From assembly GCA_004431415.1 (NCBI GenBank), contig QPMI01000069.1, positions 1 through 59,730 on the forward strand: 59,730 nt of DNA, in the 5' to 3' direction. Below, piece after piece: positions 41,230 to 59,730 of this stretch. The notes below the pieces were generated by a model, which ran no database searches, had not been told where the DNA came from, and was given only the letters and a program-made list of their open reading frames with translations. Position numbers and translations under genes: made by a program. The stretch comes from Cyanophora paradoxa CCMP329 (Eukaryota > Plantae > Glaucophyta). Each line of letters begins with the position of its first letter. The first letter of the stretch is position 1.

Positions 41230-42815
41230 TGTAGTGACACATATGAATATTCATATTTTAATCCCTCGGCGTTCCGCCTCAGGATTAAAATATGAATATT
41301 CATATGTGTGATTCGATGTTATATCAATAAAATCGATTAATTTATTTGAATTTTCACATGAATTTTCATATTTTTATATGCAATTTCAATTAATTTAATC
41401 GATGTTATATCGATAAACTCGATTAATCGATATTGTATCTTAATTGTAGTTAATCGGAATTATATCAATAACTTCGATTGATCTTAATTGAATCCTAAAT
41501 GAATCTAATCGGAATTATATCAATAAATTCGATTAAATCATGTTCTTTTCCGATTAAATCAATTAAATATTTAACTTTGTTATCATAAGTGGTCTAAGTT
41601 GACTCACTTTCATAAACATTTTGAACTCTTAGTCTCTTTGAATTTCTTAAGATGACTCAACTTAGTCAACTTAGTCAACTTTGTTACCATAATCAATCAG
41701 GGTGGACTCACTTTTAGATCAACTTTGAAATTTCAAGCAAAATCAACTTGGATTTCAAAAGTGGATCTTCTAAGTGGACTCAAAATGTTCACTTTGTGAT
41801 ACATGTTAGCTCAAATCCTTACTGTTTATGGTCAGGGTTGACTAAGTGGGGGGAGTTGACACATTTTTTGAAATCCTTTTTAGAAAACTTTTGGTCCCAA
41901 ATATTTCCTGTGAAATTTGAGTCAACTCAACCCACTTAGTCAACCCTTGCATTGAATTCGTAACAAAATCCATATACTATTACTACTTTTACGATTTATA
42001 TGAGTCAACCTTGAGTCCACTTTAATATAAATATTATATAATAGGGGGAATCAAGGGGAGATGCTTATAAACATATGAATTATTGAGCCTATGATACTTA
42101 CATCGTCAGGCAGGCCTCGTTAAGAGGATTCCGAATCTGTTTTTGGTTTTGTCACATGATGAGTTGGTGAAGAGATACATGCATTTTAGTGTTTTGTATG
42201 TGGTTTAATGATATGATGTCATAATGCATGGGTTTTCGTCAACAGTTAAATGAACAGTTAAGTGGACACCGTTTCACGATAAACGAGTAGACACTGCCTA
42301 CTCCCAACAGGTGTCCACTTAACTGTTCACTTAATTGTTCGCAATTTGCTTCATTGTCTTTCAATAGCTTTCCCGCATATCTTGTTTTCAATTGTTGTTG
42401 CAGTACACTATTACAATAGTTGTCTCGTTAACTGTTCACTTATCTGTTCGCTGCGGAAAAAAGACGATGACGGACGTGTTATGTTACGAAATGATGTCAT
42501 AATGACGATGCATATGTATATGATATATATGACACACCATCGAACTCGGGAGATCATGACGATCACGGCGATATATATATGTTATGTGTTTATGATACAT
42601 CATTATTACATCATTATGATGCATCATTCCGAAATCTCGAAAAATCGATAATCGGCATCTTCAAACGCTTGTATCTCATCACCAGATTATCAAATCGCAA
42701 CGTTCTGCATATCGCTGTGAAGCGCTTGAAAAGATCTACAAGACAATGTGTATATCATATGCATATATGTATATCAGTCATACATATATTTGGAAAAAAC
42801 GAGTTTTCGGCTAGC
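41230..42815. repeat. Non-coding structured left end, putative terminal inverted repeat region
   Basis: 28-bp perfect hairpin (41237-41264/41282-41309), four ~28-bp direct repeats (41313-41536), AGTCAAC/GAGTCCAC palindromic module (41590-42025) and a 30-bp hairpin (42241-42270/42310-42339). The partner TIR is not visible, so TIR status is inferred. Confidence 0.65.
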
Positions 42816-42818
42816 AAA

Positions 42819-44204
42819 CTAGCTAGTTTTGGTCCTCTCTCTTAGTGTTCTTTGAGGTTTAGGGGCTGTATATGACTCCTTAGTAGTCTGAAAGTCACTA
42901 TACCATCTCTGGCTATTCACTTCTGAAAGTTTCTGTGTGCCTGCTATGGTGAGCTTTTTGAGTTCCCTATTAACTTTCCCAGCCTTCTCCTTCCTAGCCT
43001 CTATCAAAGGCTTATCTGGGACTTCATTAGCAGCTTCTATGCCTTCTCTCCTTATAGCAGCATCAACCCTAGCTTCCTCTTTAGCTTGCTCTAAGGCATC
43101 TACTGTAGGGGTTTCCAGATACTCAACTGCATTCACAGGCAACAGCTCATGGAAAGCAAACCTGTTATCTATGATCTCTCCAGTGGGACTCTTTAGCTTA
43201 AACTTAAAGCCTTCCCTACTATCAACAGTGTAAACCATCCTAGACCAATTGTTACCCTGTTTAGCAAAGGGGTTCTTCTCTACTTTCACTCTAACAAACA
43301 TGCCAGGCTGCATGGTATCAAGATAAGCTATTGATTTCTTGAATCTTTCATCTTCTAATCCTACTATATACCTATAATGCTCCTCTGTAGTTTCACCTGG
43401 CTTCATCTTAGTAGCTGAGTGAACTGTATTATTGTAATTAAACTCAATATCACCCAACACATCAAAGAATCTAGCTGTGTTATTAGCTATGCAGTAGTTT
43501 GTGATCAATCTCTTAATCTGCTTGTTAAAGGCTTCAATTCGACCTTGGCTCCTATGGTCTGCAGTTCCACTCACTTGGTGTTCTATGTATTTACTAGATA
43601 AATACTCCTGGAATATTCGATTTTGGAATTCACTCCCAGCATCTGATTGAACTTTTACTATGGGTCTTGCTACTCTCATCTCAAGCTGTTTAAATGCAGC
43701 TAATGTAGTGAGAGCTGATTTATCCCTTATAGGTATGATATACCCAGTTCTCAGTGTTGATTCCATTGCAGTCATAAAGGTATCATAGCCATTGTTTTGT
43801 TTCTTATAAGCTGGGAAAAAGAGCAAATCAATCACATAGGTATCAAGGGGTTGCCTTATTGGGACCATGGGATCTCTCTTCCTAGATATAGCAGGTGCAT
43901 TGATCTGAACTACCTCTTGCTTTTTATAGAACTCTTGCAACTGCTTATAGGATTCATCTGGTAACTCAGCCCTCATAGCTTGAAGCCCTTTGTAACCAGT
44001 TCTCACATCATAGAATCTCTTGGCAATCTTGCTAGTTTCTTTCACTGCAATAGCAACTGGGATCTCTACTGGGACAAGCTCTTTCATCTCAGACTTTTTG
44101 ACAATTCGAGATTCCCCTTTTTCCTCCTTTGGAACTGTGATAGGCAGTAGGTTACCTTGCAGTTGCTCAGTGGTTCTCCTTACTATTCTTCCAGTTGCTG
44201 GCAT
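42819..44204 (-). CDS. Retroviral-like (rve) DDE integrase of Maverick/Polinton type
   Basis: Intact 461-aa ORF with YVIDLLF (D), VQSDAGSEF (D), QGRIEAFNKQIK (E) and YNNTVHSATKMKP, followed by an SH3-like VRVK..NWSRMVYTV segment. Confidence 0.95.
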   Translation of the reverse strand: MPATGRIVRRTTEQLQGNLLPITVPKEEKGESRIVKKSEMKELVPVEIPVAIAVKETSKIAKRFYDVRTGYKGLQAMRAELPDESYKQLQEFYKKQEVVQINAPAISRKRDPMVPIRQPLDTYVIDLLFFPAYKKQNNGYDTFMTAMESTLRTGYIIPIRDKSALTTLAAFKQLEMRVARPIVKVQSDAGSEFQNRIFQEYLSSKYIEHQVSGTADHRSQGRIEAFNKQIKRLITNYCIANNTARFFDVLGDIEFNYNNTVHSATKMKPGETTEEHYRYIVGLEDERFKKSIAYLDTMQPGMFVRVKVEKNPFAKQGNNWSRMVYTVDSREGFKFKLKSPTGEIIDNRFAFHELLPVNAVEYLETPTVDALEQAKEEARVDAAIRREGIEAANEVPDKPLIEARKEKAGKVNRELKKLTIAGTQKLSEVNSQRWYSDFQTTKESYTAPKPQRTLRERTKTS

Positions 44205-44207
44205 CTC

Positions 44208-47200
44208 TTAATTAAAAGGAACAGAATTAATACCATCTGGTAAGATGTATCTCTTTGCATCAAAGCAGTTTAGGGCAACCCTTCTACTCACAGTATCTAT
44301 TATTGTGTGATCTGCCCTTCTTTTCTGCTTTGCAGTCACAGTCTTGCTGATACCTGCAAATAAACACTCCTTAAAATCATTGAATTGGAGTTCCTCAGTG
44401 GAAGTCCCAGATAGCTTACTTCTCTCAATCTCAGCAGTTCTGAAACTGTAAACTTTGGCTCTCAGACCTACATACTCCAATATAGCAGAACCTGGCATCT
44501 CATTTTTGTATTTACCTGGGGTCATTCTGTTAGATCCCCTAAGTCCAGATTAAAGGATATATTCTCTAGGTCTTTTTGGAGGGTCTGAGATTCGATATAT
44601 AGACAAAAGGAATCAGTATCATGGAATAGTAACTTTGCTTTTGCCCACTGGGACCTTACAGTATCATAGAAGAACTTGTAGTTATGCAGTTTGGCAGTAT
44701 CCAAAACATAAGCCCCAATAGCAACAGGCTTATCTAGCTTCACATGTTTTGTGTAAAACTCAAAGGCAACTGCCCTTTCACTTATGGGACTTGTTGATTT
44801 CACCAATGGGGAAGCTGCATATTTCATAAATAGCTTCTCAGTGTTGGCAATCTTAACCACAGATCGACCTCTACATGATTCAATGCATTTCCCATAGATT
44901 GAATTATTCATGAGCTTATAGAAATCAGCCTCGAATTTATTCACTGCTTTCCTTCTCATATCAGTATTCAGCTCAATGTAGGGTTTCATTACAGGAGCCA
45001 CAGTAAATGATAGGACCCTGTGAACCTTCTTTAGTTTCACACCTTTAGCTAACATGTATTGTAGAAGAGGCTCAGAAACTACATAGTTGGTCACAGAACC
45101 AAAGGTTGCAGTTAGCTTAGGGTTTTATCAAGCTCTTCTCCTGAGAGATCCAATAGGCTTTTTTGATATTGTGATAATTCGGCATATTCTACTATTTTCT
45201 TGTTAATAATTAGAGGGAAATCACTGTGATCTAGAAACAGCCTAATTGGGTAATCCAGATCAACTTCTAGGAAACTGGATCTGTTATCTTGTGGGTTGAA
45301 TTCGGTCTCCCATCTAAAATCACCAACTGGGATTGGCTGACTCAAACAGTAGCCATACAAGTTGTTAGCATCAAACAGCATAATATGGGAGTTCTCACCA
45401 TCAGCCTCAGCATACCTACAAGGCATTGTTGCAAACCCACCCCTGATTCCCCTCTCAACAAATTCGTATTGCTCTACATCACTTATAAGCTCTATTTTTG
45501 CCTTGGTGGTCCTAAGCATAGCATCCCAAGATAACCCTGGTGCAGATACATAATGAACTGGGTCAAGTCCATATACTGAGTGTGAAAGCCTTCTAAATGC
45601 CTGGAATTTGTTCATTAACTCAGTCACATCAGCAGCTCCGAAATCCATGAAATTGCTTGCATCAATGAACTTGTAAAGACCCCATTGCAATGAAAGGTAT
45701 TGATCAAAGTTTTTCGAAAGGATTTCGATTCGCTTTTTATCACCCATGCCTGCTATTTTTCTGAAAATGAATGTCCCACAGTCATCCATTTGATCAACAA
45801 CAACTGCAACTTTGGTTTGCTTTGAGATTCTCCTATGGAGATTGCAGTTTCTGCATGCAGGGGCAATGTAATGACCTGTGTGGTGATCATGATCCCTGCA
45901 TTTGAAGTTTTCCTTAGTGAACCTCTCACTGCAAAGGTAACAGTGTTTAGTAGCCTTGTAAATTGCTTTCTGCTCATCTGTGAGTTCATTCATGGGAATA
46001 TTGGTAAACAGGAAGTCAATTAGCTCTCTTGCTTTGGACTCCAAGCATTCAAACAGACCTCCCATTGGATCCTGACCCTCAAATCGAAAATCTTGAGCAT
46101 CTGCCCCAGTGACTACTCTGAGGTTGACTGCTGAGACTTCTCTCTTGGATTTTGATGCATCAATGGGGATGCTTCTATGTTCAATCTTGCAGTAGACCAC
46201 AACAGGAAGCCACACAGTTTTCCTAAGGTTTTTCAGTCCAAACTCTATTGTGGTCTCAGGCTTAGGAGTGATTCCCTTTGAGAGTCTCCAATCAATGCAT
46301 CTATTTGAGTCCACATGAGCAGTGAGTTTAGCCTCAGACCTGAATCGAGATAAGCATGTGTCACAGTAGTGTAACTTCTGATCATTGTATGTTTCATGGT
46401 TTACTTTCAATAATCTTGAAAGGGACATGATTGTAATATAATGACCATTCCCTTCATCATCAAATATCAGCATGAGATTAACCTTATGCTTTCTGCCTGG
46501 GTTACTTGATTGATGCAGGGGATAAATAACCTCTCCATCGATTCCAAATATATTAATGCTAATGCCTGCATTTTGAGCCTCGAATTTATCAATAATATCA
46601 GCATCACAGGCAACAGGGAATGGGATGTTATCGAAATTGAGAGCCAGCGGATTATAAGCGATTGCTGAGTATTTCCATTTGCGATATTGTGAAAGCTCAT
46701 TCCTCTTATGGGAGTTTATCGCTTTTCTGTGAATATATGCCAAAATTGCATTTTCGAAGCAGGAATCATCAATATTTCGAATATTTACTGTGGCTCTCTT
46801 CCTAGCAATCCACTCTGGGGTTTGTAGAAAGCATCCACCAGTTGGAGCATAACTCATAATAGCCACTCTGAGTATTTCAATTCTTTCTAAGCGATAGCTA
46901 TCAACCACATTCATCTGCTCCTGACACATTTGGGCTGCTTTATTCAGCTCAGTTCGAATATTTCTCGACCTGGTTAATACAAAGTAATCACTGTAAATGT
47001 ATTTCGATATCCAAACCTGTGGATTGCTCACTTTAACGAACTTGCAGATAAAAGACAAGCGAACCTTGATTGCCCTGAATTGATCTAAACCCTGCTTTAA
47101 TCGATTTGGAAGGGATGTAGCAATTCTATCCAGGAATTCAATCACATCTACAACAACTTCCCTTCTGGCTCTGTAAGTGAGCCAGCGATATAATTCATTC

Positions 47201-47451
47201 ATGGCTGTTCCATCTTCTGCATCTGGTTCTATTTGCCTAAGCCTATCCAATTCATCCAAGGTTTCAATTTTATCATATAGGTTATTTGCTTTTCTGGTTA
47301 ATCTGCTTAAAGTGGGTCTGCCCTTTGCAATTAAATCTATTTCCCGGTCATATTCAGCCTCTGTAATTTCATGGGCTGCATAAAGTGTTCCCAGCAATCC
47401 CATGAGTTCCCATTTCTTCTCCCTTATGAGTTTGTTGGTAATTCGGGGCAT
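44208..47451 (-). CDS. Protein-primed family B DNA polymerase (pPolB), split into three ORFs by two 1-bp indels
   Basis: DANNLYGY (motif A), KLMNNSIYGK (B), FHDTDSF (C), GKYKNE..GLRAKVYS, YGLDPVHYVSAPGLSWDAML and endonuclease VII-like CYLC..RDHDHHTG..CRNCNL. Adding one C to the CCC run at ~45120 gives KTPKLTATFGSVTNY; adding one G to the GGGG run at ~44537 gives GGSNRMTPGK. Confidence 0.95.
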
Positions 47452-47511
47452 TATTCCTAACTTGTTCCTATTCTAAGGGGATATTTTATTTTAGGATGTT
47501 CTAAACGCAAT

Positions 47512-47862
47512 TTAAAATGTTTTAATGGATCCATTGGCTTCCTCTGAATGAAATCGCAAAAACCTATTAATCCTAAATCGGGATTTCGGTTTTTGTAAAT
47601 TGACTATCCAAGGTTCAAAGAGATACATGTAATATGCTTCTCTGTTCATTAGGTCTTCATGCCCACCCTTCTTACTTGAATACAGGACTGAGAACTTCAC
47701 ATCAGAAGCCTTGCATAGGTCTGCTGTAGATGGCATTTGACCTGATTTGTGTTGTCTCCATCTTTTTTGTAGTGGCTGTGAGGTTCTCCCTATATAAACT
47801 TTATTCAATTCTTCACTCTCAATCATATAGATCGATCCAGAATCATGATCTGTTCCAGCCAT
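47512..47862 (-). CDS. GIY-YIG endonuclease
   Basis: GSIYMI..KVYIGRT..LQKRWRQH..REAYY..VN, the canonical GIY/YIG, Arg, Glu, Asn pattern. Confidence 0.9.
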   Translation of the reverse strand: MAGTDHDSGSIYMIESEELNKVYIGRTSQPLQKRWRQHKSGQMPSTADLCKASDVKFSVLYSSKKGGHEDLMNREAYYMYLFEPWIVNLQKPKSRFRINRFLRFHSEEANGSIKTF

Positions 47863-47913
47863 TTCTTACTACTTACATATAAATATATTTTTCTATCTCT
47901 TAAATCATTTTTT

Positions 47914-48100
47914 GGTTGACTTAGTGGGTGGAGTTGAGGCACTTTTTATTTCTTTTTAGGGCAGAGTCCTTTTTTAGAATCTGTGAAAAAATGAGTCAAC
48001 TCCCCCCACTTAGTCAACCTAATCGATAAATAAACCATAAATAAAAGACTGTTTGGGTCTTTTATGATAAATTTGAGTCAACCATGAGTCCACTTTTGAG
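47914..48100. repeat. Internal copy of the palindromic AGTCAAC/GAGTCCAC module
   Basis: 47995-48019 is the exact reverse complement of 41836-41860 (25 bp); tgagtcaaccatgagtccacttt at 48074 matches 42001 with one mismatch; the copy has its own internal inverted repeat (47914-47936/47995-48019). Confidence 0.88.
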
Positions 48101-48105
48101 TAAAC

Positions 48106-50700
48106 CTAAACTTCAACATCAGAATCATAATCTGATGCATCAGGATCAGCAGCAGGTAGGTCCTGTTTCATCCTTGGATTAGCTTCTTCCTCAATAGTCT
48201 CATCATCTACAAGCTTCATCTTTCTGAATTCCTCAAATACTTGTGGGAATAGGAAATGATAGTATTGTTTGCCATTTGTAGTTTTCACTTGGATATATGT
48301 AACACTTCTCATTTCAGTATAATATCGGCGACTATTATAATCGTTTTTATATTTATTGCTGGTAATAAACTCCTGGAACCACTTCCAGGTTTCCACAAGG
48401 CTACCAGACTTGCATTTATTCTCGGAAATTAAGCCTCGATCCACAAGCCACTTAGTGAACATAAGAATGATTGGAGCGCACACCTGTTGGGCTAAATAGT
48501 ATTTATTTGTAAGGGGTCTATCAGCAATCCAGTTCACATCCTCACAGTCAACTTTGGTTCTCAAATAGTGGGCAATGTTTCGAATATTGCAGTGATCATT
48601 TAGCCATTTTACAAGTGGAAGGAAGTATGACCTATCCTTTGCGAATTTCTTACTAACTTCAACAACCACAAATCGCCTATCTCCAGCTTCAATTTTCACT
48701 GGAATGTTGTTATTGCTGGTGAATATAATCCTGGCAAAGTTGCTTTTTGTGTATGAATCTATCCCTTTGTGTTCAATTACAATCTTATCAGAAGTTATGA
48801 GATCTTTGAGCATATCATTATTTTCGAATGTGTCCTTGCCTGAGGCTTCATTCACAACAATCAAGATCTTATCCTCTCTATTGTGGGCAAATCGACCAAA
48901 CAGATCCTCTTTTGGCTTTCCAGTTGCATAACTTAGGGCATCTCCAAGTATCTTCTTTTGGAAAGTATCAACCAACACATTTTTACCAGTTCCCTGCTCA
49001 CCAATGAAGATTAAGGATACTCCATTGAGTTCCCCAGGCTTTTGCAGCATGTGGGCAAACCATTTCAACAGATATTCATAGGTATTTTGATCCTCACCAG
49101 ACATTAAGAACAAGTGATCTAGGAAAGGCTTAATCATCTCAGCAGTTACATCCTCTGGAGCATTTTCGAATTGCTGATGGTCGACCTTCATTCCTGGATA
49201 GAGATTAAATACAGACTTGCATTTTGCACTGAGAGAAGCAGGAGGGGGAAGGAAATCCATGTAAGTTGATCTTGTGGCTGTTGGATCCACAATCCATTTC
49301 CTAAATGATTGCTCCCATTTCTCTTTCTCATTATCTGTTCCCTCATTGACAATCACCTTATGCATCAAATGGGGGAAATGCTTTGTAGAGAGCTTCCCAA
49401 TATCTTTGGGCATCCAGCAAAGTAGTTGTTCATCCCAGAGCATCACACAACCAACATTTTCAACATGATGCATTCGAGCATTGAAATACCTCTTATGCAC
49501 ATTGTAATGTTCAGCCAAAGGAGGGATACTTGCAGTCTTGTAATCGATTTCATCTGTGTCCTCTGGTAGGAATGCATACTTTTTGGGGAAGAGTTCCTTG
49601 AAAAGCTCATTGTTATCTTTGCTCAACCAATAAACCAAGGATTTGAAGGTCAACACTTTGCCAGGCTCAGCCTTCTTCTTGCTTCTGCGAAGCTGTGTAA
49701 ACTTCTCCTGGCATTCATCATAATCATACTTGTCACTCTGTTCTGAGAATTGGTGGAAGAGTTCAGCTTGCATTTTAGGGGTGAACTTGTTGTCTTCCCC
49801 AACATTGATGATGACCAGTCCTACATCAATCCAAGTTTTATACTCATTAGCTCTCTCACCATTCAGACCCATTATAACACTTTGTAGCAGTTCGAAAGTA
49901 ACAGGATTTTCGGGTTCAGTGTCTTTTTCAGCTTCTACCTTCTCAGTCTTCACTTTATCACTTTTTGGCTCCTTTTTAACTGGTTTTGGCTCAGGGCTAT
50001 AATTTGCGAATGCAGAAATATTCGATTCATCCACAAGTTTAGTAGAAGCTGAGAAGAAAGATACAAAGAAGTCCTCATTTCGCATTAACACTTTGTCACA
50101 GTCAACGAATTTCTTAAAGCAAACGTTTTTATCAACATCTTTCTTTGATTTATTTTGAGCATCCAGAGTCTCACCTTTGCAGCAATTGAGGCAGATTAGG
50201 TTCTGTGTGGAGCTGTAAACTCCACTGTCATAATCCTCATTTTTCACCAATCCCATCGCTTTGAAAAGCTTGGGGATATCTTCATGTTTGCATGCAAGCG
50301 ATTTAATAATAAAGTGGGCTGAAATCTTGAACTTGGTGACATCCTCCTTAATCAAATAAACCCTTCTATGGCGAACTGCAACAGCAATATCGTTAATAGA
50401 AGTGGTACCAGATCGCTTCCATAGCTTATCTCTCATCTCTCTTACAACAGTTTCCGCCTCAGCATAGTTATCAGCAATGTTCTCCTTCAAATCAGCGAAT
50501 TTATCCAGGTCCAGGTAAACTCTGGTCACTTGCTCAGGTTGAATGCATTCAGCCCAGGTCTTAACCTTGCTATTATCAATGGCTTCAAGGGCATCTTCGG
50601 CAGAATCAAATACATGGGTGACCTTGTTGCGATCACCAATGAGAGTACTAAGGAATGTAGCATTTTCAACAGGGGTGGCGAATTTCTCGATTTTGTTCAT
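48106..50700 (-). CDS. Primase-helicase: AEP/PrimPol domain, PriCT-2 and SF3 helicase
   Basis: Intact 864 aa. AEP motifs RVYLDLD, KISAHFII and DSGVY; PriCT-2 EYKTWIDVG..FHQFSEQSDKYD..TFKSLVYW; Walker A GEQGTGKN; Walker B LIVVNEA; IIFTSNN; GDRRFVV. Confidence 0.95.
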   Translation of the reverse strand: MNKIEKFATPVENATFLSTLIGDRNKVTHVFDSAEDALEAIDNSKVKTWAECIQPEQVTRVYLDLDKFADLKENIADNYAEAETVVREMRDKLWKRSGTTSINDIAVAVRHRRVYLIKEDVTKFKISAHFIIKSLACKHEDIPKLFKAMGLVKNEDYDSGVYSSTQNLICLNCCKGETLDAQNKSKKDVDKNVCFKKFVDCDKVLMRNEDFFVSFFSASTKLVDESNISAFANYSPEPKPVKKEPKSDKVKTEKVEAEKDTEPENPVTFELLQSVIMGLNGERANEYKTWIDVGLVIINVGEDNKFTPKMQAELFHQFSEQSDKYDYDECQEKFTQLRRSKKKAEPGKVLTFKSLVYWLSKDNNELFKELFPKKYAFLPEDTDEIDYKTASIPPLAEHYNVHKRYFNARMHHVENVGCVMLWDEQLLCWMPKDIGKLSTKHFPHLMHKVIVNEGTDNEKEKWEQSFRKWIVDPTATRSTYMDFLPPPASLSAKCKSVFNLYPGMKVDHQQFENAPEDVTAEMIKPFLDHLFLMSGEDQNTYEYLLKWFAHMLQKPGELNGVSLIFIGEQGTGKNVLVDTFQKKILGDALSYATGKPKEDLFGRFAHNREDKILIVVNEASGKDTFENNDMLKDLITSDKIVIEHKGIDSYTKSNFARIIFTSNNNIPVKIEAGDRRFVVVEVSKKFAKDRSYFLPLVKWLNDHCNIRNIAHYLRTKVDCEDVNWIADRPLTNKYYLAQQVCAPIILMFTKWLVDRGLISENKCKSGSLVETWKWFQEFITSNKYKNDYNSRRYYTEMRSVTYIQVKTTNGKQYYHFLFPQVFEEFRKMKLVDDETIEEEANPRMKQDLPAADPDASDYDSDVEV

Positions 50701-50953
50701 TTTCGATTTTGGGACTTCTACCTTTAACGAAGAAAATAATTTCGGAAGGAGGAATTGTCTTTTATATATATCCTATTATTTGCCAAGTCCTTAAGTAGTT
50801 TTGGGTCGGGATACTGTCTCGATATATAGGTACAGTTTTAAAAAAGAGGGAAGAAAGCTGTCATTTTTTTGCCTCCGATCAAATCGATTTCTACAAAATT
50901 TGTTTCGATCGAGAATTTATTCTTCGATATATTTCCGAGGTCTTCCAACCGGT

Positions 50954-51241
50954 TTATGCTCTTTGGGTTTCTTGGCTGTTCATCTTTCTTCTTGTGGTAA
51001 TATTCCAGCGCTTTTGCCTTTTTTTGCTCGCGATATTCTTCATTTTCCCTGTATTTCCTCTGGTGTCTGAGGGCAATCTTTTTGAGTTCTTCTGGTGTGT
51101 GAACTGTAGCGGCTCCTTGGGATAATCGTTCCTGCTTCTTTTTATGATAGGCTTCGCGTTTTCTTTGGCATCTTGCTCCCTTTTCAGTCTCAGCTTCTCT
51201 GCTTTTTCATCATCTGTGAGTATCTTGCGGATATTCGGCAT
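50954..51241 (-). CDS. Small basic hypothetical viral protein
   Basis: 95-aa Lys/Arg-rich ORF in the same orientation as its neighbours, with an AT-rich leader; the C-terminal frame may be affected by an indel. Confidence 0.5.
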   Translation of the reverse strand: MPNIRKILTDDEKAEKLRLKREQDAKENAKPIIKRSRNDYPKEPLQFTHQKNSKRLPSDTRGNTGKMKNIASKKRQKRWNITTRRKMNSQETQRA

Positions 51242-51290
51242 TTCTCTTTAATAGTAGATACGAAAATAATTTTTCCTCAATACAATCTAT

Positions 51291-51638
51291 CTACTTTTTC
51301 CTTAAGTCATTTTTTGTTGCGAACACCAGTTCCTGTCTGTAAACTTTTATAGCTGCCTCAGTGGCATACTGAGACCGCTTTTTCTCAATTATCTTATAGA
51401 CCTGGGGTCCATTGCTACTATCAGTAGGCAAATAATATTTAATCGGTCTCCCTCTGGGTCTCTGCTCCTCTTTTTGGGCTTTTCTGCGATAATAGGATGC
51501 CAGGGCTTGCTGCTTTTTATACTCTCTATATTCTGGGTCCTCTCTATATCGTTTCTGCATTGCCAGAATGTGTCTTATAGACCCCTCAGTAACAGGTTCA
51601 TCACTGGTAAACTCGATTAAACTAATAGTGTCCTCCAT
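51291..51638 (-). CDS. Hypothetical DNA-binding protein with an AT-hook-like motif
   Basis: Basic helix KRYREDPEYREYKKQQALASYYRRK followed by RPRGRPIK. Confidence 0.6.
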   Translation of the reverse strand: MEDTISLIEFTSDEPVTEGSIRHILAMQKRYREDPEYREYKKQQALASYYRRKAQKEEQRPRGRPIKYYLPTDSSNGPQVYKIIEKKRSQYATEAAIKVYRQELVFATKNDLRKK

Positions 51639-51892
51639 TTATATTCCAGAGAAAACGTTTTCTGCTGGCAGAGAACTTCTCCTTGGATACTCCTGTTGCT
51701 CATATGTATACTCTGTGGGTCTGCTGGCATTGACTCCACAGACACTGTTGATCTTCTTCTCTCTCTTGCTTCTGAGGCATTATCCTCATTATCTGACATC
51801 TCAAACTCTATTGTTGTGTCACAGCATCCACTGTGGCAATTGCTGACCACATGCAGACTGAGCATCTCAATAAACTTTCGTATTATATCCAT
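51617..51892 (-). CDS. Hypothetical viral protein
   Basis: 91-aa ORF with SNCHSGCC near the N-terminus, tightly packed between neighbouring genes. Confidence 0.45.
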   Translation of the reverse strand: MDIIRKFIEMLSLHVVSNCHSGCCDTTIEFEMSDNEDNASEARERRRSTVSVESMPADPQSIHMSNRSIQGEVLCQQKTFSLEYKWRTLLV

Positions 51893-51960
51893 GTCTCTAA
51901 TAAAACAGAGAAAATTAAAGCCAAACTCGTCTTTTATATACTGTTGGGCTACTCCCTTTT

Positions 51961-52646
51961 CTACTTCAGCTTTGTGGCACCAGGCTCAATGGTTCCCTTT
52001 TGGGTCTTTGTTTTCATTTCATCTACTGCTTGCTCATCGATTTGGTTCTCCTTCTTGGCAATAAACTGTTTATCTGGGACACCAGTAATGCCCATTTTAT
52101 AAACTTCCTTTCGAAGCATCTCCTTTAGCTTGGCTCTCTCTTTCTTCTCAGTAACATACTGCTCCAAGGCACTTGATTTGGCTTCCAGATCTTTGAGTTT
52201 AGCAGTCATCTCATCCCATTGAGCCTTGGGAATTCGATGAATATTTTGAGTGGGAGCAGTCTTATATGTGACTTCACCAGCCATAGACTGAATAACCTTG
52301 TCTGATTCCTTACTAAGACCTTCACCTTTGCGAGCCAGTGAAAGATCTTGCAAGCCTAAACCTTTATCATCAGCAGCCCCAATAATTCGCCTGGCACCCT
52401 CAGCAACAGCTTTCATTTTTGAGGCTTCTGGTGAGATGTTGAGTTGGTCACTGGTTGAAGCCTGTGGGCTTTGTCATCGACTGATTCCTCATAGGCAGCA
52501 TTAAGAGGGTCTTCTTCTTGTTGTGAGGGCTTCACCTCATTCATACCATTGAACTTCAGTGGTTCAGTGTTAATGGATCCATTGTTTCCACCACCTGAAT
52601 AGCCAACAGCCCCAGCTGGGATCCCTATCTTTCGTTTGGGAGGCAT
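51961..52646 (-). CDS. Hypothetical coiled-coil protein, probably one gene split by an indel near 52415-52470
   Basis: Two abutting ORFs (52413-52646 and 51961-52416); N-terminal MPPKRK resembles an NLS; predicted helix MTAKLKDLEAKSSALEQYV. Confidence 0.55.
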
Positions 52647-52724
52647 TGTATCTTTATTAGAATGAGAGATAATTTTATAAACCGCGTTTATATCGCATCA
52701 ATTTATTGCTATGGACTTGGCTTT

Positions 52725-53454
52725 TCACTTCTTTGGGGCTTCCTCTTTCTCTGGTGGTTTCAGTTCATCTTCTTTCTTCTTGGGCTTCCTGTGGAAGCGA
52801 GGAAATGGGAAATCTTTCACAAGCTCAGCTTTATCTACATAGTATTTAACTGAGTAGTTTGCAGAGGACCAAATAATATACTGATAGGAGTGAACATACT
52901 CTTCAAACATCTTGTAAAATCCTCTTTATTTCGCATTATATTGTATTCTTCCTCTATGGCTTCAAGTTCTTTGCGATTTGCAGCACTGAGAAACATAGCA
53001 TAGTCCGAATTAACTCGAATAGTCGAAGAGACTTTCCTTAGCTTTTGTGTGATGCAGATAATGGATATTTTCGAATGGCGACCTCTGGAATACAGAGAGC
53101 CAATAATTTTATCACGAGTTAGGTCTACAATCTCATTATCTATAAGATCATCTAAAACTACACATAACTGGTTAACAGGTTGACCTTTTTCTATTTTCTC
53201 TTGCCTTTCATCTAGCAATTTAGCAATGTAAGGGCATCCCATTTTCCCAGTTGCAATGTTGCAACTTTATCCCAGAAATGATTGAAGCTGGTTCCACTCA
53301 CAACTAATACAACATCAATCTTTTTGGCATCATGCAACTGCTTCAACCAATACTTCACAGCTTCTGATTTACCAGTTGCTGATTTTCCTATTGCCAGTAC
53401 ACGAAATGGTGGCTCTATCATTTCACCAGCCACAAATTCATCCAAATCAGTCAT
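52725..53454 (-). CDS. Genome-packaging ATPase (A32/FtsK-HerA family), frameshifted
   Basis: Walker A IGKSATGKS, Walker B CVVLDD, family motif SRGRHSKISIICITQ and IRVNSDY, spread over three frames. Confidence 0.92.
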
Positions 53455-53519
53455 TGTTGTATATCTTTCTTAATAAAGACATATAAAAATAATGCAGGGA
53501 GACTGAATATCGTCACAAT

Positions 53520-54883
53520 CTACAAATTTATACGACGAAGCCCATCTTTGTCGACAATAATAAAGCTATGCATGAGAGCGCGAACATTAACATCGATTAC
53601 CTTATCTGAAGGCATGTAGAGGGTGAGGAATGAAGAGGAGGAATTTGTTAAATCAACATAACCAGACTGGGCAATATTTCGAATCGCCTTTTCTCCATCA
53701 AGGCAGAAAGGCAATCCTGAAAGGACATAGCGATCAGCAACCTTATCCATGTTAGAGCATTTGAAGGCATCAGCAATTAGCTCAGCACCTTTGAGTAGGA
53801 AATTGGCTCAGTGGCAAAAAGTCGCTGTCCATTTATTTCAGTTGTGAATGTTATCTCTTTGGAGTTGGCATAGGTCTTAAGAACACTGTGGGAGCCTGTG
53901 GATTTATCAACAGTTGCATTATCACGAACTGAAACAAGCAGAGCATAAACCAGTCCAGAGATTTGAGAGAGGTTAATTCGATTGGGTTGGGCATTGCCCT
54001 TGGCAGGGAAAGCACTAGCATCAACAAACCCAATGTCTAGAGCAGGAATAGCCATGCCAGTAGTCTTTACTTTTTCAATAACAGTAGCGAAAAGCTCATC
54101 AGAAACATTAATAGCATGCATGTAAAGGCGAGGAGAGGTAATTGTAATACCAGGGTTGTTGCACCAAGACTGAAAGTGGTGATGTTTTGACCAACATGGG
54201 CAAGGGTTCCATCTGTGAAGTTTCCAAGACCATCATCGGCAGTTGCATCAACTGTTCCAACAGCAGTTGTGAGTTCACGACCACCATAGGAAGTTTCAAC
54301 ATAACCCTTCTCAGCATCCTTAAACCAAACAGTAACAACCATTTCACCAGATAAAGCACCAAGGGAAGGTAGTGATTTAGCCAAGGCACAGGAATTTCAA
54401 CGAAAAATGAGCCACCAAGGCGGTTGGTTCCATGAGCAGGAATGCCATGAACCATGCCCATTGATCGCTTCTTTTTAGCTAGTTGATCCTCCGAATAATA
54501 GACCAGGGGAAATGAGCAAGGAAATCAGATGGAATATGGTAGGTGTAAGATCCATAGGTAATTTCAAGTCGCTGAACTAAAGCACCAACTGGGCGAGTGT
54601 ATCCATTGCGAACTAGGTCAGTATCACCAGCAAAAGTGATGGCTGGAAGGTCGAAAGCAAGTTCGAGTTTTCCACAGAAATTGTAGCGAGGTAGCTTAAA
54701 GGAAATGCGATTTCCAACATTATTCTCAAAAGTATTGCTGGGATTCACAACAACTAGAACTGGCTTAGACTTGGATTCGAGACCAAGCATAAGGGAGTTA
54801 TCCAGGAAAAAGGCTTTCGCCTCCTCTGGGGTTGTTAGGGCTTCTTTCAGCGAAAGTCTTTGAAGAGTGGAAGTGATATCCAT
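53520..54883 (-). CDS. Putative double jelly-roll major capsid protein, frameshifted
   Basis: About 450 codons in total, beta-strand-rich (NRISFKLP, LELAFDLP, LVQRLEITYG, FFVEIPVPW, MVVTVWF, INLSQISGLVYALLVSVR, FTTEING, GYVDL, FLTLY), adjacent to the ATPase and penton-like genes. Call rests on pattern and context. Confidence 0.72.
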
Positions 54884-54935
54884 TATATTCTCTTTTATTA
54901 TACTGCAACATAAAAATCTACCAATGATCCTTAAT

Positions 54936-55939
54936 TTATGCGAAGCTTGTAATAACTGGATAGGAAGGGTGAAGCTGCGACATTCTCATCTTAAAGTATT
55001 CATAAACTGGGTCTCCTGCTGGCTCATCACCATAGCGAATTTCAAAGGTCAGATGAACAGGTTGACCCTCAAAATCAATTGGTTCATTTACAGCATTAAC
55101 AATATCAACCGAGAAAGTGGATAATCCAACCTTTTGTTATAGTATTTATAAAGTGGATGAGCTTCTGTTGAATTGTAAACAACATGCTCACCATAGTCTT
55201 TATCAGGGACCACTATTTTGTGAAAGTAACCAGTCAGAAGACCATCCCACATTGCACCAGATCACCCAGCTCCTTTACTCTCACAAACAAAACACTGTCC
55301 CTGTCTTCTCAGGCTCAAAAGAAGATATAATGCCATTCACGCGACCACCAGTAAAGATTCCATCAGTGAGAGCATCATAGACCTGTGATTGGATTGGGAG
55401 TTACCATATCTTCCAGGATCAAGACCCAGCAGTCTAGCTGAACTCAACAGCTTTTGGATTGTTTGTTGGCTTGGGTTCACAGCTACTGAGAAAGCCAAGT
55501 AAAATGGTACTGCTGAGTGGAATATAATTCGTTTCAGTGATTCATCCCATTTGCAGCGAATGGATGGTTGGGGATTTCTGCCTTCGAATTTAGAGTTAAT
55601 TACATTCACCAGTTGCTGTGGCTTTGGATGGGGGTGTTTCGACTTATAATGAATTGTTTCCATTGTTCATAGTCAGCAGCTGGGCGAACTGTTGGAATTC
55701 CTGAGCTTCCAGCTCCAGGAGTTTGTTCAGAATAATAAATGCTAATGCATTGTCAACTGTCACATCTCCTGCTTTGTTTCACCACTCACCATAGGGATAC
55801 TGTTATAAAATTCGGCTGAGACCAGTCTCACAGCCCTCACATTCTCATAACTACTGGGGAGTCTAGCCACAAAGCTTGATGTGGGACCATCACCAGAGAT
55901 TGTATTAAATGAGCTAACCTCGATGTAATCCACAGGCAT
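54936..55939 (-). CDS. Putative minor capsid (penton-like) protein 1, frameshifted
   Basis: Manual translation: N-terminus MPVDYIEVSS..SSFVARLPSSYENVRAVRLVSAEFYNS; middle LLGL; C-terminus LSTFSVDIVNAVNEPIDFEGQPVHLTFEIR, typical of PLV/NCLDV single jelly-roll minor capsids. Confidence 0.68.
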
Positions 55940-55967
55940 TCTTCTTTATCTATATTTATATATTAAA

Positions 55968-56890
55968 ATGAACCGGCTCGTTAATATTGATAGCAGGGAT
56001 AGAAGCCAAGGACAAAATGAAAACTCTTACAGGGTCACCCTCACAACTCCAGTAGAGAGACCAAGGGAATGTAGGGTTCTCTATGCAGAGATTCCAAACA
56101 GTATCTATAACAGTGTGGGAACTGATCATCTAACAGTTCAGTTTAATTACCAAGATGGTTCATATAACCAAGTGATCACACAACAAGTGTATCCCCTTCC
56201 CAGTGGCTACATCAATCAGGGTCATTTTGGGTCACACACCCTTATAATTATGGGCTGAACTATTCAAGCTTCCAAACTATGCAGGCAAAACAGTAGCTTT
56301 GAGTTCAAGATATTCTACAACCCAACTACCTATAAAGTGGAGTTTTACAGTAACCATGAGTTTCGTTTTATTGCAAGCAACCAGAGAATAGGGAAGCTTT
56401 TGGGTGTGAGTTCTACTGAATACACCAATGGTTATTATAGCACTCCTCCTGCTGGTGGAATCTCCCTATCGACCTGAGAACCTTTTAAAGTATGATGGCA
56501 AACCTATTACACCTGATCACCCAGCATGGGGAATCACCTTCTCAGGACCAGACTCTCATCTAAGCCCTTGCAATATTATTTTGACAGCAGAAAGATGTCT
56601 GATATGAATGCTGAGCAGATCTATACATGCACATTAAAGAGCTTGCCCCTTTTGCCAGCAGACACAATATAATTCCGAAATCGCAACCACATAACCAGGG
56701 GCAATCCTTAGATTGCAATTGAGTAAGGATATAGTGGCTATGTTTACCATAGAGTGAACATGCAGAATTCATTCAGATAAATGACAGAAACCTGGTGATA
56801 AGGAACTCACAGTTGAGTTTAAAGATTACTTTGGTGAACTGATTATATGAATGAATCGATAATTCTTTTCAGTTGGAGTTTATCGAATAA
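55968..56890 (+). CDS. Putative minor capsid (penton-like) protein 2, frameshifted
   Basis: MNRLVNIDSRDR..SYRVTLTTPV..CRVLYAEIPNSIYN; later GKLLG and ELTVEFKDYFGEL..NSFQLEFIE-stop. Confidence 0.72.
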
Positions 56891-57409
56891 AGGCACCTGT
56901 AAAGTCAACTCTCATTGTGAGCATTCACATACACAAGGGGATAAATGCGAATATATTTAATTCTGAGAGAAAAACCTATGTAAAAAGCATCCTTGATGCT
57001 GAGAGAAATCCACTCAATAGAGCCACATCACCTGAGTGTGAGCATTGTTAATGTTCTCACAGACATATATTTGTTTTGCCCATCTGATCGATAAAAGACC
57101 AGTTGATCCCATCATGGATGTTGCCACATGAAGTCTTAATAAAGCATTGTGTCCCCTGATCCATAGGCAATCACAGAAGAGAGTTCAAAAGTATATGGAA
57201 AGCAACTTGAAGTATTCAGTGGGTTTCCCATATCTGCTCAGGAGCATAGGCTCCAGCTTCCCAGCCAAATGCTGAAGTCTACCATGAAGGCTCTTACCAG
57301 TCACAGAGGATAGGCAGTGAAGCATCATCTGCAAGCTGATACCAATTAGCATCCAAAGTGTGATGTAGTGAGAGTGGATGAGATGTAAGCCTTGTAGGTC
57401 TTTAATCAT
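56880..57409 (-). CDS. Possible F5/8 type C (discoidin) domain protein, heavily frameshifted
   Basis: Fragments across frames in discoidin order: GWEAG, LQVAF, VIAYG, DGINWSF, IKYIRIYP, MRVDFTG. Confidence 0.45.
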
Positions 57410-58395
57410 AGTTTGCTACTAGAATGCTGCAAAGCTTATTAATCATATCATTGTTTGCTGCTATGTATGTTTCTGTGAAAGAAAGCATATCTGGGATTTT
57501 AGAAGTGTCATCCAGGAGCTTACTATGTGATCGGAAGAGGTACTGATAACCTATAGTATCTCCCATAATCCTGATCATAGTTGTAGGGTAACAACTCCTC
57601 CATCTTATCAAGGGCAGAAAGCTCACTTGCAGCATGAGCATGTTAATCAATGGGCTTCCATCGTTGAGGCAATCCATGAGAGAATGCCCCAGCTTTGACA
57701 GTCTCATAAGCATAACCCACAATAATCAGACTCTAAATGTGGGTCACCTCTCCACAAGAGATACTTATTACTATAATCATCATCATCACTGTAAATCTTC
57801 TTTGCATGGCTGTAACCACACACACTGGGATTATTGTTTCCCGAAATGGCACCATCAATGAGACAGACATATACTCCCCGATTGAAATCAACAATGCTTA
57901 CAGGAGAAAATATGTAGGAGCAGCAGAAGTAGCCCTAGCAGCAATCTTACAAGGCATAAAGTTGTAATTGTTGTCATTTGTGATAAATATTGGTTTCATA
58001 TTCTGAGTATCAAAGGATGTAATCACAATGTCCTTTAGGGAATCCTGTATTAGTGATTCACCAGTAACTGAATTGATTGCAGTCTCCAAGGGTCCCACAT
58101 CATACTTTGTGTTAAAAGGGCATTTTCATGATATTTCGAGGATTTGCGAAAATCAAGGGCAGTTGAGTTAGGTAAATATTGTGTAAATCGTTTGCTGTCA
58201 GTTTAGGTTCACCTGGTTATCAGGATGCCTTATATTCAAACCTATTGCAATGATCCCACCAGTGGAAGTTCCACTCACAAGATCCACAAGATCGATTATT
58301 CTCCTGCCAGTTCGATTTTCGATTTCTTTTAGCAGCCTGGTTATGATAATGCCCCTTGCACCCCCGCAGAAAGACTAAACGACCTTGAGAGGCAT
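57402..58395 (-). CDS. Patatin-like phospholipase, frameshifted
   Basis: GGARGII (oxyanion loop), LVSGTSTGGIIAIGL (GxSxG), IVITSFD, AARATSAAPTYF and LIDGA (catalytic Asp). Confidence 0.88.
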
Positions 58396-58438
58396 CTTTT
58401 ACTTATCAGGAATTTTATAAATCCATATAGTAAAAGCC

Positions 58439-59704
58439 ATGAGCTTCAATTACCCACCAAATCTAGAAACCATTCAAGATGATAATGCAAGCAGCACCAA
58501 GCATGTGAACTTTGATAATATTAAAGTAAAGGGTTCAGTTTCAATTGACCACAGCTCTGATAATTCATCAAAGACTCAATCAAGGAGCATGCTTTATCTG
58601 TGAATCAAACCGATCCAGATAAAGAGGATGTCAGTGTAGCCTTTAGTTTGGGTAATGTGAAAGCAAACCAAGTGGCAGAGATCAAAGCAACAAGAAGGAG
58701 ACCTAGGAAACTAAAAACCAGTGGCACTCACCCAGATATACCTTCCAGGTTCGATAGTGGTCGATTGATTTTCAATGTTCAAGATGAGCAGGGCAAACAG
58801 AACACAGCTTTGCGAATTTACAATGAGGGCAGCACTGCAAAAGCTGAGGTCCCCCAAGTATTGCAAGTGGGTCCCATTGCCAATACAAATCAGGTCTCCT
58901 ACACAAATGATGTCTACCCCAAGGATATTACATATGACTTTGCAAGAATGAGCCTTTTGGGTTCTTTACTCCAAAAGATGTCCATCAAAAAAAAGCCATC
59001 AATTACAATCAACAGTAGCCCCAGTCAACCAGTAGCAATCCATTTACACCTGATTTAGTCGAAATGGATAGGCACCTTTTGCCTTTGTATAGCAATGTGA
59101 AAGACCTTGGAATTCGAACCAGGCAATGGCGAAATATCCATGGCAGCAATGTGTATGCAAATGGAGAAGCTTGTAAGTGAGAAAACCCTAAGAGAAATCA
59201 TTGAGCATTATGGTCCCAATGGACCTACTGTCCCATTCCCTATTCCATTTCCCAATGGACCACCGATTTAACACCAAAGAAGCAACCTGGAAGAGAATAC
59301 ACAGCAACTGAAGATGTAGCCTTTGGGCAGCATATTGTTAGTTGGGAGCAAGTTCGCAATAAACCTATAATTGAACCAAAAGCAAATAGATGAGCAGTAT
59401 TTACCTCCTGAAATCGATATATTAGAGCTTGATGAATATCAATTCGTTCCAGATGAGGAAGATTTTACCAGATGGTTTTGACCCACAAGAATATGAGTAT
59501 GATCAGTTTGACCCAATGAGGAGGAGATACTCCCAGATGGTTTTGACCACAAGAATTGAGTATGAACAGAACTATGAACCTGATGAGGAGTATTTACCAG
59601 ATGGTCATGATCCACCAGCTGTTGACTATGAGCAACCTTATGAACCCCATGAGGAATTGTTACCAGATGGATTTCGACCTGAGATCTGGGAGTTCTTTCC
59701 CTGA
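58439..59704 (+). CDS. Putative fibre/spike-like protein with acidic C-terminal repeats, frameshifted (could be two genes)
   Basis: GRLIFNV..TALRI, HLLPLYSNVKDLG..RQWRNIH and WEQVRNKP resemble tail-fibre motifs; the C-terminus has four LPDGxxP acidic repeats. Confidence 0.45.
59445..59685 (+). repeat. Coding tandem repeat, four units of ~65 nt (~22 aa; EE.LPDGFDP..YEY)
   Basis: ccagatgg cores at ~59468, 59533, 59597 and 59663. Confidence 0.85.
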
Positions 59705-59730
59705 TTTGAACAAATTAATAAATAAACCTG

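What the first reader, a model, noticed from the sequence alone, without database searches (positions are those of the whole stretch)
41230..59730. Endogenous Polinton-like virus with two replication systems and an expanded virion module in a cytosolic-starch protist
Seen: at least 18.5 kb of AT-rich, intron-free DNA encoding an rve integrase, pPolB, GIY-YIG, an intact AEP-PriCT2-SF3 primase-helicase, A32 ATPase, an MCP-like gene, two penton-like genes, patatin and discoidin-like and fibre-like genes; no adenain-type maturation protease appears in the visible part. Established: integrase, pPolB, ATPase and MCP define Maverick/Polinton elements, and PLVs often carry SF3 helicases and lipases. 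Inference: a mosaic of a Maverick-type integrase/PolB block and a PLV-type primase/morphogenesis block, possibly an undescribed lineage; host features suggest a glaucophyte-like alga.
Basis: partly seen in the sequence, partly recalled or inferred. Interest (0 to 1): 0.85.

Follow-up and report, generated by a model that had tools for sequence, protein, structure and literature searches.

The report
Algal provirus with proofreading-dead polymerase
A small DNA virus, integrated in an estimated 30 or more copies in what is likely a glaucophyte alga, carries a DNA polymerase that has lost its proofreading motifs and a separate primase-helicase, so the two enzymes likely work as one copying machine rather than two rival systems; the virus's capsid family was already catalogued.

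Summary
The element is real. It starts at 41,237-41,239 (not 41,230) with a 73-nt hairpin, inside a truncated LINE. It encodes rve integrase, an HNH-containing pPolB, GIY-YIG, an intact primase-SF3 helicase, A32 ATPase, a double-jelly-roll MCP and patatin. Pentons and fibre rest on recalled motifs; discoidin is unconfirmed. Short-read contigs show a multicopy family (about 30-40 copies of this primase; some other parts 90 or more), and the listed frameshifts look like assembly errors. Much of the novelty is in print: the MCP is 58-66% identical to a Cyanophora paradoxa capsid listed by Bellas 2023, and dual-replicase elements and terminal palindromes are in 2026 preprints. This scan also found sibling elements on other DNA of this genome. 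What I did not find in print: the pPolB has lost its Exo I, II and III motifs and about 95 residues, which 40 of 41 relatives keep, while its polymerase motifs are intact. That parallels mavirus (exonuclease-less pPolB plus separate helicase). Best reading: one coupled replisome with an exchangeable helicase-plus-origin cassette, not two systems. New variant of a known kind; interest 0.42.

The parts
39947..41238 (+). 5'-truncated non-LTR retrotransposon (LINE) fragment, the insertion target; its reading frame runs without a stop into the element
   Evidence: zf-RVT E=0.02; about 27-29x single-copy depth; other LINE copies continue behind 41,238 in 3 of 4 runs (table 7)
41237..41309 (.). Left terminus: 73-nt fold-back palindrome
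   Evidence: 35-nt arms, 91% complementary (I2); -29.5 kcal/mol with DNA parameters; a contig of run X15 begins at 41,237 with a different flank
41237..42067 (.). Probable left terminal inverted repeat, about 830 bp (inferred; right end not in the window)
   Evidence: A different sequence follows 42,067 in contigs of X1, X4, X12, X16 and X15. One X12 contig here has 87x single-copy depth against 40-42x for the primase; an X4 contig here has only 27x
41586..42023 (.). Block of direct and inverted GAGTCAAC/TTAGTCAAC repeats, candidate origin inside the terminal repeat
   Evidence: (D2, D9, I1, I3); origin function inferred
42241..42450 (.). Second palindromic repeat block (AACAGTTAA type) with no copy elsewhere in the window
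   Evidence: (I6, I8, D11)
42819..44204 (-). rve integrase, intact, 461 aa, D-D-E residues present
   Evidence: Pfam rve E=1.4e-4; motifs; 27-31% identity to integrases next to pPolB in L002-L005
44208..47451 (-). Protein-primed family B polymerase with HNH/EndoVII insertion (pPolB2 type), in three frames; motifs A, B, C and KxY intact; vOTU-type Cys and His present (motif recalled)
45625..46194 (-). Eroded 3'-5' exonuclease region: Exo I Asp replaced by Lys, Exo II H-N..D lost, about 95 residues including the Exo III Tyr missing, in an open frame
   Evidence: a variant contig with 16 substitutions and no gap spans the deletion point (record 20)
47512..47862 (-). GIY-YIG endonuclease, 116 aa
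   Evidence: Pfam E=1e-10; an X12 contig bridges the pPolB start and this gene at 28x depth
47914..48096 (.). Internal copy of the GAGTCAAC block directly after the primase stop codon, candidate cognate origin
   Evidence: 68% over 192 nt to 41,836-42,023 in direct orientation, plus a 34-nt inverted match at 97%
48106..50700 (-). Primase-helicase (AEP motifs, PriCT-2, SF3/D5-like), intact, 864 aa
   Evidence: Pfam, PHROG primases E to 5e-26, PDB 6k9e E=1e-16; 6 of 6 listed variants synonymous
50841..52925 (-). Cluster of small, mostly basic ORFs of unknown function
   Evidence: no Pfam hit
52835..53454 (-). A32-type packaging ATPase in two frames
   Evidence: Pox_A32 E=2.9e-8; 5 of 5 listed variants synonymous
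53520..54883 (-). [quoted passage not shown]
   Evidence: 58-66% to P0001 in four pieces, 47% in the fifth; Atlas Capsid_N 0.98; fold search; published HHpred for the protein that reads as P0001
54936..55942 (-). Penton-like gene 1, frameshifted (identity from recalled motifs)
   Evidence: no family hit
55968..56880 (+). Penton-like gene 2, frameshifted (IDSRDR..AEIPNS motif recalled; end approximate)
   Evidence: no hit
57402..58400 (-). Patatin-like phospholipase, frameshifted
   Evidence: Pfam Patatin E=1e-7 on the G-T-S-T-G piece
58433..59058 (+). Fibre-like ORF (likeness recalled only), one break
   Evidence: no family hit
59432..59704 (+). Acidic ORF with about 65-nt repeats; the window ends before the right terminus
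   Evidence: D4-D6

Best explanation
This is one copy of a multicopy integrated Polinton-like virus whose protein-primed polymerase lacks its proofreading motifs and likely copies the genome together with the neighbouring primase-helicase, as one replisome. Shown: the gene set, the insertion into a LINE at a hairpin-capped end, the multicopy state, the lost exonuclease motifs beside intact polymerase motifs, and a repeat block present both after the primase gene and inside the end. Inferred: the SF3 helicase loads at the GAGTCAAC blocks and unwinds; the AEP domain primes, or the terminal hairpin or terminal protein starts the ends; the exonuclease-less pPolB extends; rve integrase inserts new copies; A32 ATPase packs genomes into double-jelly-roll particles. 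The primase plus its repeat block is likely an exchangeable cassette in a backbone of integrase/pPolB and capsid genes. It works like mavirus (exonuclease-reduced pPolB, separate SF3 helicase, rve integrase) but carries a Polinton-type HNH pPolB and a different capsid.
For: Exonuclease: the window has K for the Exo I Asp, lacks Exo II H-N..D, and has 5 residues between Exo II and Exo III. Relatives: Exo II kept in 41 of 41, Exo III in 40 of 41, median spacer 99 aa (41 of 84 loci had 300 or more open residues and were counted). The one exception, L008, is a broken gene in four ORFs. The loss lies in a 779-aa open frame and is shared by a variant contig (record 20). Polymerase motifs are intact. 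Listed variants are synonymous in 4 of 5 pPolB and 6 of 6 primase sites, 20 of 22 overall. Krupovic 2024 states that exonuclease loss goes with helicase gain in mavirus and in pPolB-S1H PLVs (PMC11161782). Cassette: summed depth over 47.8-51.1 kb is about a quarter of the flanks in 3 of 3 DNA runs. Single primase contigs are at 30-42x, while at 45,538 (X12) and 57,090 (X4, X12) at least one contig must be at 90x or more (arithmetic). Insertion.
Against: No biochemistry or transcript data. AEP-SF3 proteins are sole replicases in many PLVs, and authors read pPolB plus primase as a transient replacement state. The pPolB is on a very long branch (2.58 against a median 0.27; quick tree) and lacks the Lys of a thumb K-G motif seen in 4 of 4 relatives, which could mean relaxed function. 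The two pPolB frameshifts were not among the 12 of 152 indels shown, so an intact pPolB is inferred. The variant sample is 22 tool-chosen sites of 986. In X4 and X1 the lower bound at 45,538 (32x, 19x) does not exceed the primase depth. Summed depth is inflated where variants are dense. No contig bridging the junction appears among the 32 of 1,508 pieces shown.
Confidence: 0.52

Rival explanations
1. Replacement in progress: the AEP-SF3 protein is the real replicase, and the pPolB is decaying or is kept only for its terminal-protein and vOTU part.
For: Long pPolB branch; eroded exonuclease and thumb motif; hairpin ends are preferentially linked to non-pPolB replication genes in Halocafeteria, whose authors call dual replicases transient.
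Against: Motifs A, B, C and KxY are intact; 4 of 4 listed variants in the polymerase part are synonymous; pPolB appears at least as widespread in the family as this primase.
Confidence: 0.25
2. Two independent modes: protein-primed pPolB replication from the ends in one setting (host nucleus) and primase/hairpin replication in another (for example a giant-virus factory).
For: Both genes look constrained; vOTU-type catalytic residues are kept (motif recalled); replication-module switches are suggested to reflect different life strategies.
Against: A proofreading-less pPolB is not known to work without a helicase in the cases Krupovic 2024 lists. No data on a helper virus.
Confidence: 0.15
3. 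The stretch is two abutting elements (a transpoviron-like integrase-pPolB-GIY unit with its own ends, next to a primase/capsid PLV) or an assembly chimera of related copies.
For: Repeats bracket integrase-pPolB-GIY (I1, D9), as in Barth et al. Fig. 6 text; the right part of the window is error-rich; one contig joins the terminal repeat to 56,712; no single contig spans the element.
Against: The internal repeat matches only the inner 190 bp of the end, mainly in direct orientation, at 68%, with no hairpin. Depth is continuous at about 28-42x from pPolB start through GIY-YIG and the repeat into the primase in X12. Only one joint across this boundary is listed, at 88.5 depth in X1 (15 of 29 joints shown).
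Confidence: 0.08

Closest known systems
Cyanophora paradoxa endogenous viral elements in Bellas et al. 2023 (PMC10120064, Tables S2 and S4)
   Same: Same MCP family: P0001 (EukProt C. paradoxa) reads as gene_47449 (HHpred 98.47% to an iridovirus MCP, 406 columns); gene_64235 shares 49 of the first 60 residues with the window's MCP (counted by eye). 366 MCPs in two clusters.
   Different: The rows seen give MCP counts and HHpred checks only. By my column count the two clusters fall among the unnamed iterative-HMM clusters. No replication-module analysis was seen; Dataset S1 was not seen.
Dual-replicase polisuviruses (Barth, Ha, Aylward, 10.64898/2026.10.13.758929; Halocafeteria elements, 10.64898/2026.07.28.741278)
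   Same: pPolB plus DDE integrase together with an AEP or D5 primase-helicase; repeats bracketing a replicase; terminal palindromes; one example carries the assembly prefix that Bellas Table S1 gives for C. paradoxa.
   Different: They read the state as acquisition or transient replacement. The sections read do not mention an exonuclease-dead pPolB. Figures were not held.
Mavirus (Lavidavirales) replication module (PMC11161782; PMC3671162)
   Same: Exonuclease-reduced pPolB, separately encoded SF3 helicase, rve integrase, GIY-YIG, a lipase, multicopy insertion in a protist.
   Different: The mavirus helicase has no primase domain. Here the pPolB is the HNH-containing Polinton type with an eroded, not deleted, exonuclease region; the MCP is not shown to be virophage-type; no maturation protease is seen; the lipase is patatin.
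pPolB2 Polintons of oomycetes and nematodes (Jeong et al., 10.1101/2023.08.22.554363) and IMG/VR contigs L002-L005
   Same: pPolB with an HNH/EndoVII insertion, directly upstream of rve integrase in 4 of 4 loci.
   Different: They keep all exonuclease motifs, and none matches this primase or MCP within the DNA held.

Membership tests
Polinton-like virus (Polisuviricotina, broad sense) | [quoted passage not shown] | tested here: met
   Full-length match to P0001. Low-confidence model (pLDDT 35.5); N-terminal domain: top 10 rows all DJR capsid proteins, best 8h2i Z 6.1, rmsd 4.5, 130 aligned. Atlas Capsid_N 0.98, 25 of 30 hits, recognition below its threshold. The second jelly roll rests on the published HHpred match.
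Polinton-like virus (Polisuviricotina, broad sense) | A32-type packaging ATPase | tested here: met
   Pox_A32 E=2.9e-8, above the curated cut-off
Polinton-like virus (Polisuviricotina, broad sense) | [quoted passage not shown] | tested here: inconclusive
   Recalled motifs and mutual similarity at E=0.12; no hit
Polinton-like virus (Polisuviricotina, broad sense) | 15-40 kb unit bounded by terminal inverted repeats | tested here: inconclusive
   At least 18.5 kb; left end defined; right end outside the window; no genome held
Polinton-like virus (Polisuviricotina, broad sense) | Target-site duplication | not testable with these tools
   Right flank missing; the empty LINE site is known, so it is predictable
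Maverick/Polinton (Polintoviricetes) | pPolB plus rve integrase | tested here: met
Maverick/Polinton (Polintoviricetes) | Ulp1/adenain maturation protease | tested here: inconclusive
   No motif and no match to the L005 protease in the visible 18.5 kb; right part unseen
Maverick/Polinton (Polintoviricetes) | MCP in the Maverick-Polinton or Gossevirus clades | tested here: inconclusive
   Leans against: 0 of 84 pPolB loci match P0001 or P0003, and Bellas Table S4 counts the species' MCPs outside those columns by my reading. No MCP tree could be built: only 2 homologs were found.
pPolB2 class (Jeong 2023) | HNH endonuclease domain inside pPolB | tested here: met
   Endonuclease_7 E=1.5e-4 at residues 492-538, slightly under the curated cut-off; same in 4 of 4 relatives
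pPolB2 class (Jeong 2023) | Conserved Exo I, II and III motifs | tested here: not met
Mavirus-like virophage | Exonuclease-reduced pPolB with separate SF3 helicase and rve integrase | tested here: met
   against PMC11161782; a functional likeness, not membership
Mavirus-like virophage | Virophage-type MCP and cysteine protease | tested here: inconclusive
   Mavirus MCP ranks 10th, Z 4.0; Bellas Table S4 shows no virophage MCPs for the species by my reading; no protease seen
Mavirus-like virophage | Dependence on a giant virus | not testable with these tools
   Needs infection experiments
Transpoviron-like integrase-pPolB unit | Its own pair of inverted termini around integrase-pPolB | tested here: not met
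   The internal repeat is a partial, mainly direct, 68% copy without the hairpin

The most novel reading that the evidence does not exclude
A third, independent case of 'exonuclease lost, helicase gained' among protein-primed viral polymerases, after mavirus and the pPolB-S1H fusions. Here a Polinton-type HNH pPolB has become proofreading-dead and dependent on a plug-in primase-helicase that brings its own origin, in a so far glaucophyte-only, unnamed capsid lineage. Dual-replicase polisuviruses would then often be stable two-enzyme replisomes, not snapshots of replacement.
Probability: 0.3. Interest if true: 0.65.

Novelty: new variant of a known kind. Interest (0 to 1): 0.42.

Why it matters
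Dual-replicase Polinton-like viruses are currently read as transient states of gene replacement. This family offers a direct test: dozens of near-identical copies, two intact enzymes, a candidate origin and a predicted loss of proofreading, probably in a cultivable alga. If the enzymes cooperate, the link between exonuclease loss and helicase gain becomes a repeated rule, and the exonuclease state of a pPolB predicts whether a helicase partner is needed. The element itself is one more copy of a family already counted.

Tried and rejected
No whole genome was held, so sibling copies, the right end and the target-site duplication could not be read. MCP homolog searches: none with the N-terminal fragment; 35 rows, of which 2 are full-length homologs and 33 were set aside as repeat-type partial matches; only itself with P0001; no PDB sequence match; one weak short locus, L001; nothing in metagenomes with P0003. 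No close relatives of the primase or ATPase in viral contigs. Penton searches were blank. The pPolB model was low-confidence (pLDDT 43.5) and its Foldseek search gave nothing at E<=0.001: no use either way. Foldseek of the MCP model on BFVD had no row at E<=0.001. Expression: no RNA holder listed; X15 and X16 are only guessed RNA runs with low, patchy cover, so nothing is concluded. Rejected: a decayed fossil (all 12 indels shown of 152 are bases missing from the window but present in contigs of several runs; 20 of 22 variants synonymous); start at 41,230 (the LINE runs to 41,238); the internal repeat as a second element end; discoidin. My first reading of the depth dip as a plain copy number was softened, because summed contig depth over-counts variant-dense stretches. 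The pPolB tree is the quick version and cannot place the long window branch. Scan look-ups near the finding, by primase sequence and by exonuclease words returned nothing.

Full report
Observation. GC content drops from about 0.6 to about 0.39 at 41.25 kb and stays low to the window end. The stretch encodes, on the minus strand from the left: rve integrase (42,819-44,204), a protein-primed polymerase in three frames (44,208-47,451), GIY-YIG, an intact 864-aa primase-helicase, small ORFs, an A32 ATPase in two frames and a capsid gene in five frames. Two penton-like genes, a patatin and a fibre-like gene follow. Pfam supports integrase, polymerase, HNH insertion, GIY-YIG, PriCT-2/SF3, A32 and patatin. 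The AEP domain, pentons and fibre rest on recalled motifs. No discoidin domain was found in 72 of 72 fragments. No protease was found in the visible part.

The end and the insertion. The left flank is a 5'-truncated LINE (zf-RVT) at about 27-29 times single-copy depth. In 3 of 4 runs, other LINE copies continue behind position 41,238 with a different sequence, and one contig of X15 starts the element at 41,237 with another flank. The element therefore begins at 41,237-41,239, exactly at a 73-nt palindrome. A join at the precise terminus with only two shared bases argues for a true insertion (inference). An alternative continuation behind 42,067 in all five runs laid suggests a terminal repeat of about 830 bp.

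Multicopy and probably intact. Single-copy host DNA at 38.4-40.0 kb has depth 132 (X4), 43 (X12) and 63 (X1). Long, nearly invariant primase contigs are at 30x (X4) and 40-42x (X12) of that; GC bias or free DNA could inflate these figures. All 12 indels shown (of 152) are bases missing from the window but present in contigs of several runs; several fall at breaks in the MCP, penton 1, patatin and fibre-like genes. Of the 40 substitutions shown (of 986), 22 lie in frames I assigned and 20 are synonymous. Bellas 2023 describes such frameshifts as common assembly artefacts.

Capsid. The MCP matches P0001 along its whole 456 aa (47-66% per piece); P0001 is a Cyanophora paradoxa protein. Its model is poor (pLDDT 35.5), but the 10 best structural rows are all double-jelly-roll capsid proteins, for the N-terminal domain only (best Z 6.1, rmsd 4.5, 130 aligned). 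Bellas 2023 Table S2 lists a protein that reads as P0001, with HHpred 98.47% over 406 columns to an iridovirus MCP, and a closer one sharing 49 of the first 60 residues with the window (by eye). Table S4 counts 366 MCPs in that species in two clusters (272 and 94), which by my column count are unnamed. The capsid family is thus catalogued but unclassified. Only one other homolog, P0003 (35% to P0001), was found among 1.84 billion representatives.

Modules. Four IMG/VR contigs carry the same HNH-pPolB directly upstream of rve integrase. Among 84 pPolB loci, 16 match the integrase and none matches this primase or MCP; most are short. The integrase/pPolB block is thus a known mobile module paired here with another capsid. 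Within the family, summed depth over 47.8-51.1 kb is about a quarter of both flanks in X1, X4 and X12. Summed depth over-counts variant-rich stretches, so I used a bound: at 45,538 (X12) and 57,090 (X4, X12) at least one contig must be at 90x or more, against 30-42x for the primase; at 45,538 X4 and X1 give no such excess. The primase block is therefore rarer or more uniform than its flanks, as expected for an exchanged cassette. A GAGTCAAC repeat block follows the primase stop codon and recurs inside the terminal repeat. I first read these repeats as bracketing integrase-pPolB; scan notes on sibling elements suggested a helicase-matched origin, which fits better because the internal copy is partial, mainly direct and lacks the hairpin. 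Origin function is untested.

The polymerase. Aligned with relatives, the window's pPolB has Lys for the Exo I Asp, has lost the Exo II H-N..D motif, and has 5 residues between the Exo II region and Exo III, with the Exo III Tyr gone. Of 84 loci, 41 had at least 300 open residues before motif A and were counted: Exo II is kept in 41 of 41, Exo III in 40 of 41, Exo I Asp in 23 of 24 covered, and the median spacer is 99 aa. The exception, L008, is a gene broken into four ORFs whose Exo I lies in an upstream frame. In the window the loss is inside a 779-aa open frame, and a contig with 16 substitutions and no gap spans the deletion point. Motifs A, B, C and KxY are intact. Against a healthy enzyme: a very long branch in a quick tree and a changed thumb motif.

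Mechanism. Krupovic 2024 notes that loss of the exonuclease goes with gain of a helicase in mavirus and in pPolB-S1H PLVs. By analogy, I propose one replisome: the helicase loads at the repeat blocks, the AEP domain or the hairpin/terminal protein starts synthesis, the proofreading-less pPolB extends, integrase inserts and A32 packages (0.52). Rivals are replacement in progress (0.25), two independent modes (0.15), and abutting elements or chimera (0.08).

What is in print. Dual-replicase elements with repeat-bracketed replicases, including one with the C. paradoxa assembly prefix, are in Barth et al.. pPolB plus D5 primase-helicase and terminal palindromes are in the Halocafeteria preprint. 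Starrett 2021 mentions adintovirus-like sequences in C. paradoxa. Yutin 2013 calls pPolB plus primase-helicase uncommon. Jeong 2023 reports exonuclease motifs conserved across pPolB1 and pPolB2. I found no report of an exonuclease-dead pPolB2 beside an AEP-SF3: searches and scan look-up.

What I saw of each paper. PMC10120064: part 2 of 7 of the text and search rows of supplement file 2 (cut when stored); Dataset S1 not seen. PMC8502044: one passage and section 10. 10.64898/2026.10.13.758929: abstract, section 10 part 1 of 2, sections 11 and 13, passages. 10.64898/2026.07.28.741278: passages and section 7. 10.64898/2026.06.19.733378: abstract, sections 5-7. PMC11161782: passages and section 5. 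10.1101/2023.08.22.554363: 12 of 40 passages. PMC12721341: 11 passages. PMC13215967: 12 of 16 passages. PMC3671162: 12 of 19 passages. Figures and preprint supplements were not seen and could already show this element or its polymerase state.

Verdict. A real, multicopy, probably intact endogenous Polinton-like virus of an already counted family. The proofreading-dead polymerase with an exchangeable primase-helicase is a modest, testable variant. Interest 0.42.

Noticed in passing
window 41902-42067 and 56712-57393: One 1,167-nt contig of run X15 runs from the inner terminal repeat through 316 other letters into 56,712-57,393, and the same continuation behind 42,067 occurs in four other runs. 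Some copies therefore place this block next to an end, in another order than this window: an inversion, another subfamily or a local misassembly.
   Followed up: partly
window 51.8-59.7 kb: A divergent subfamily at about 86% identity and 11-17x depth shares the capsid-side genes (records 15, 16, 30), and a partial match at 49,062-49,166 suggests a second primase allele.
   Followed up: partly
window 42241-42450: A second palindromic repeat type (AACAGTTAA) lies between the terminal repeat and the integrase with no partner in the window; it may be the origin of another helicase type.
   Followed up: no
window 47517 and 51282: One X1 contig (depth 88.5, about one copy) joins the GIY-YIG end to 51,282 on the opposite strand: possibly a copy with the primase block rearranged.
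   Followed up: no
window 12000-16400: Intron-rich, GC-rich host gene with a recalled glucan/phosphoglucan-water-dikinase motif; not confirmed by Pfam on six exons.
   Followed up: partly
window 25700-34000: Large minus-strand host gene with five repeats of about 1.15 kb at 72-99% identity (D3), probably a repetitive surface protein.
   Followed up: no
window 17046-17284 and 19204-19442: Two identical 239-nt direct repeats 2,158 nt apart (D13), possibly the LTRs of a small element.
   Followed up: no
L008 1510-12287: A decayed Polinton-type element with a broken pPolB that independently lacks the Exo III region; LINE-like ORF at its left edge.
   Followed up: partly
   Followed up: no
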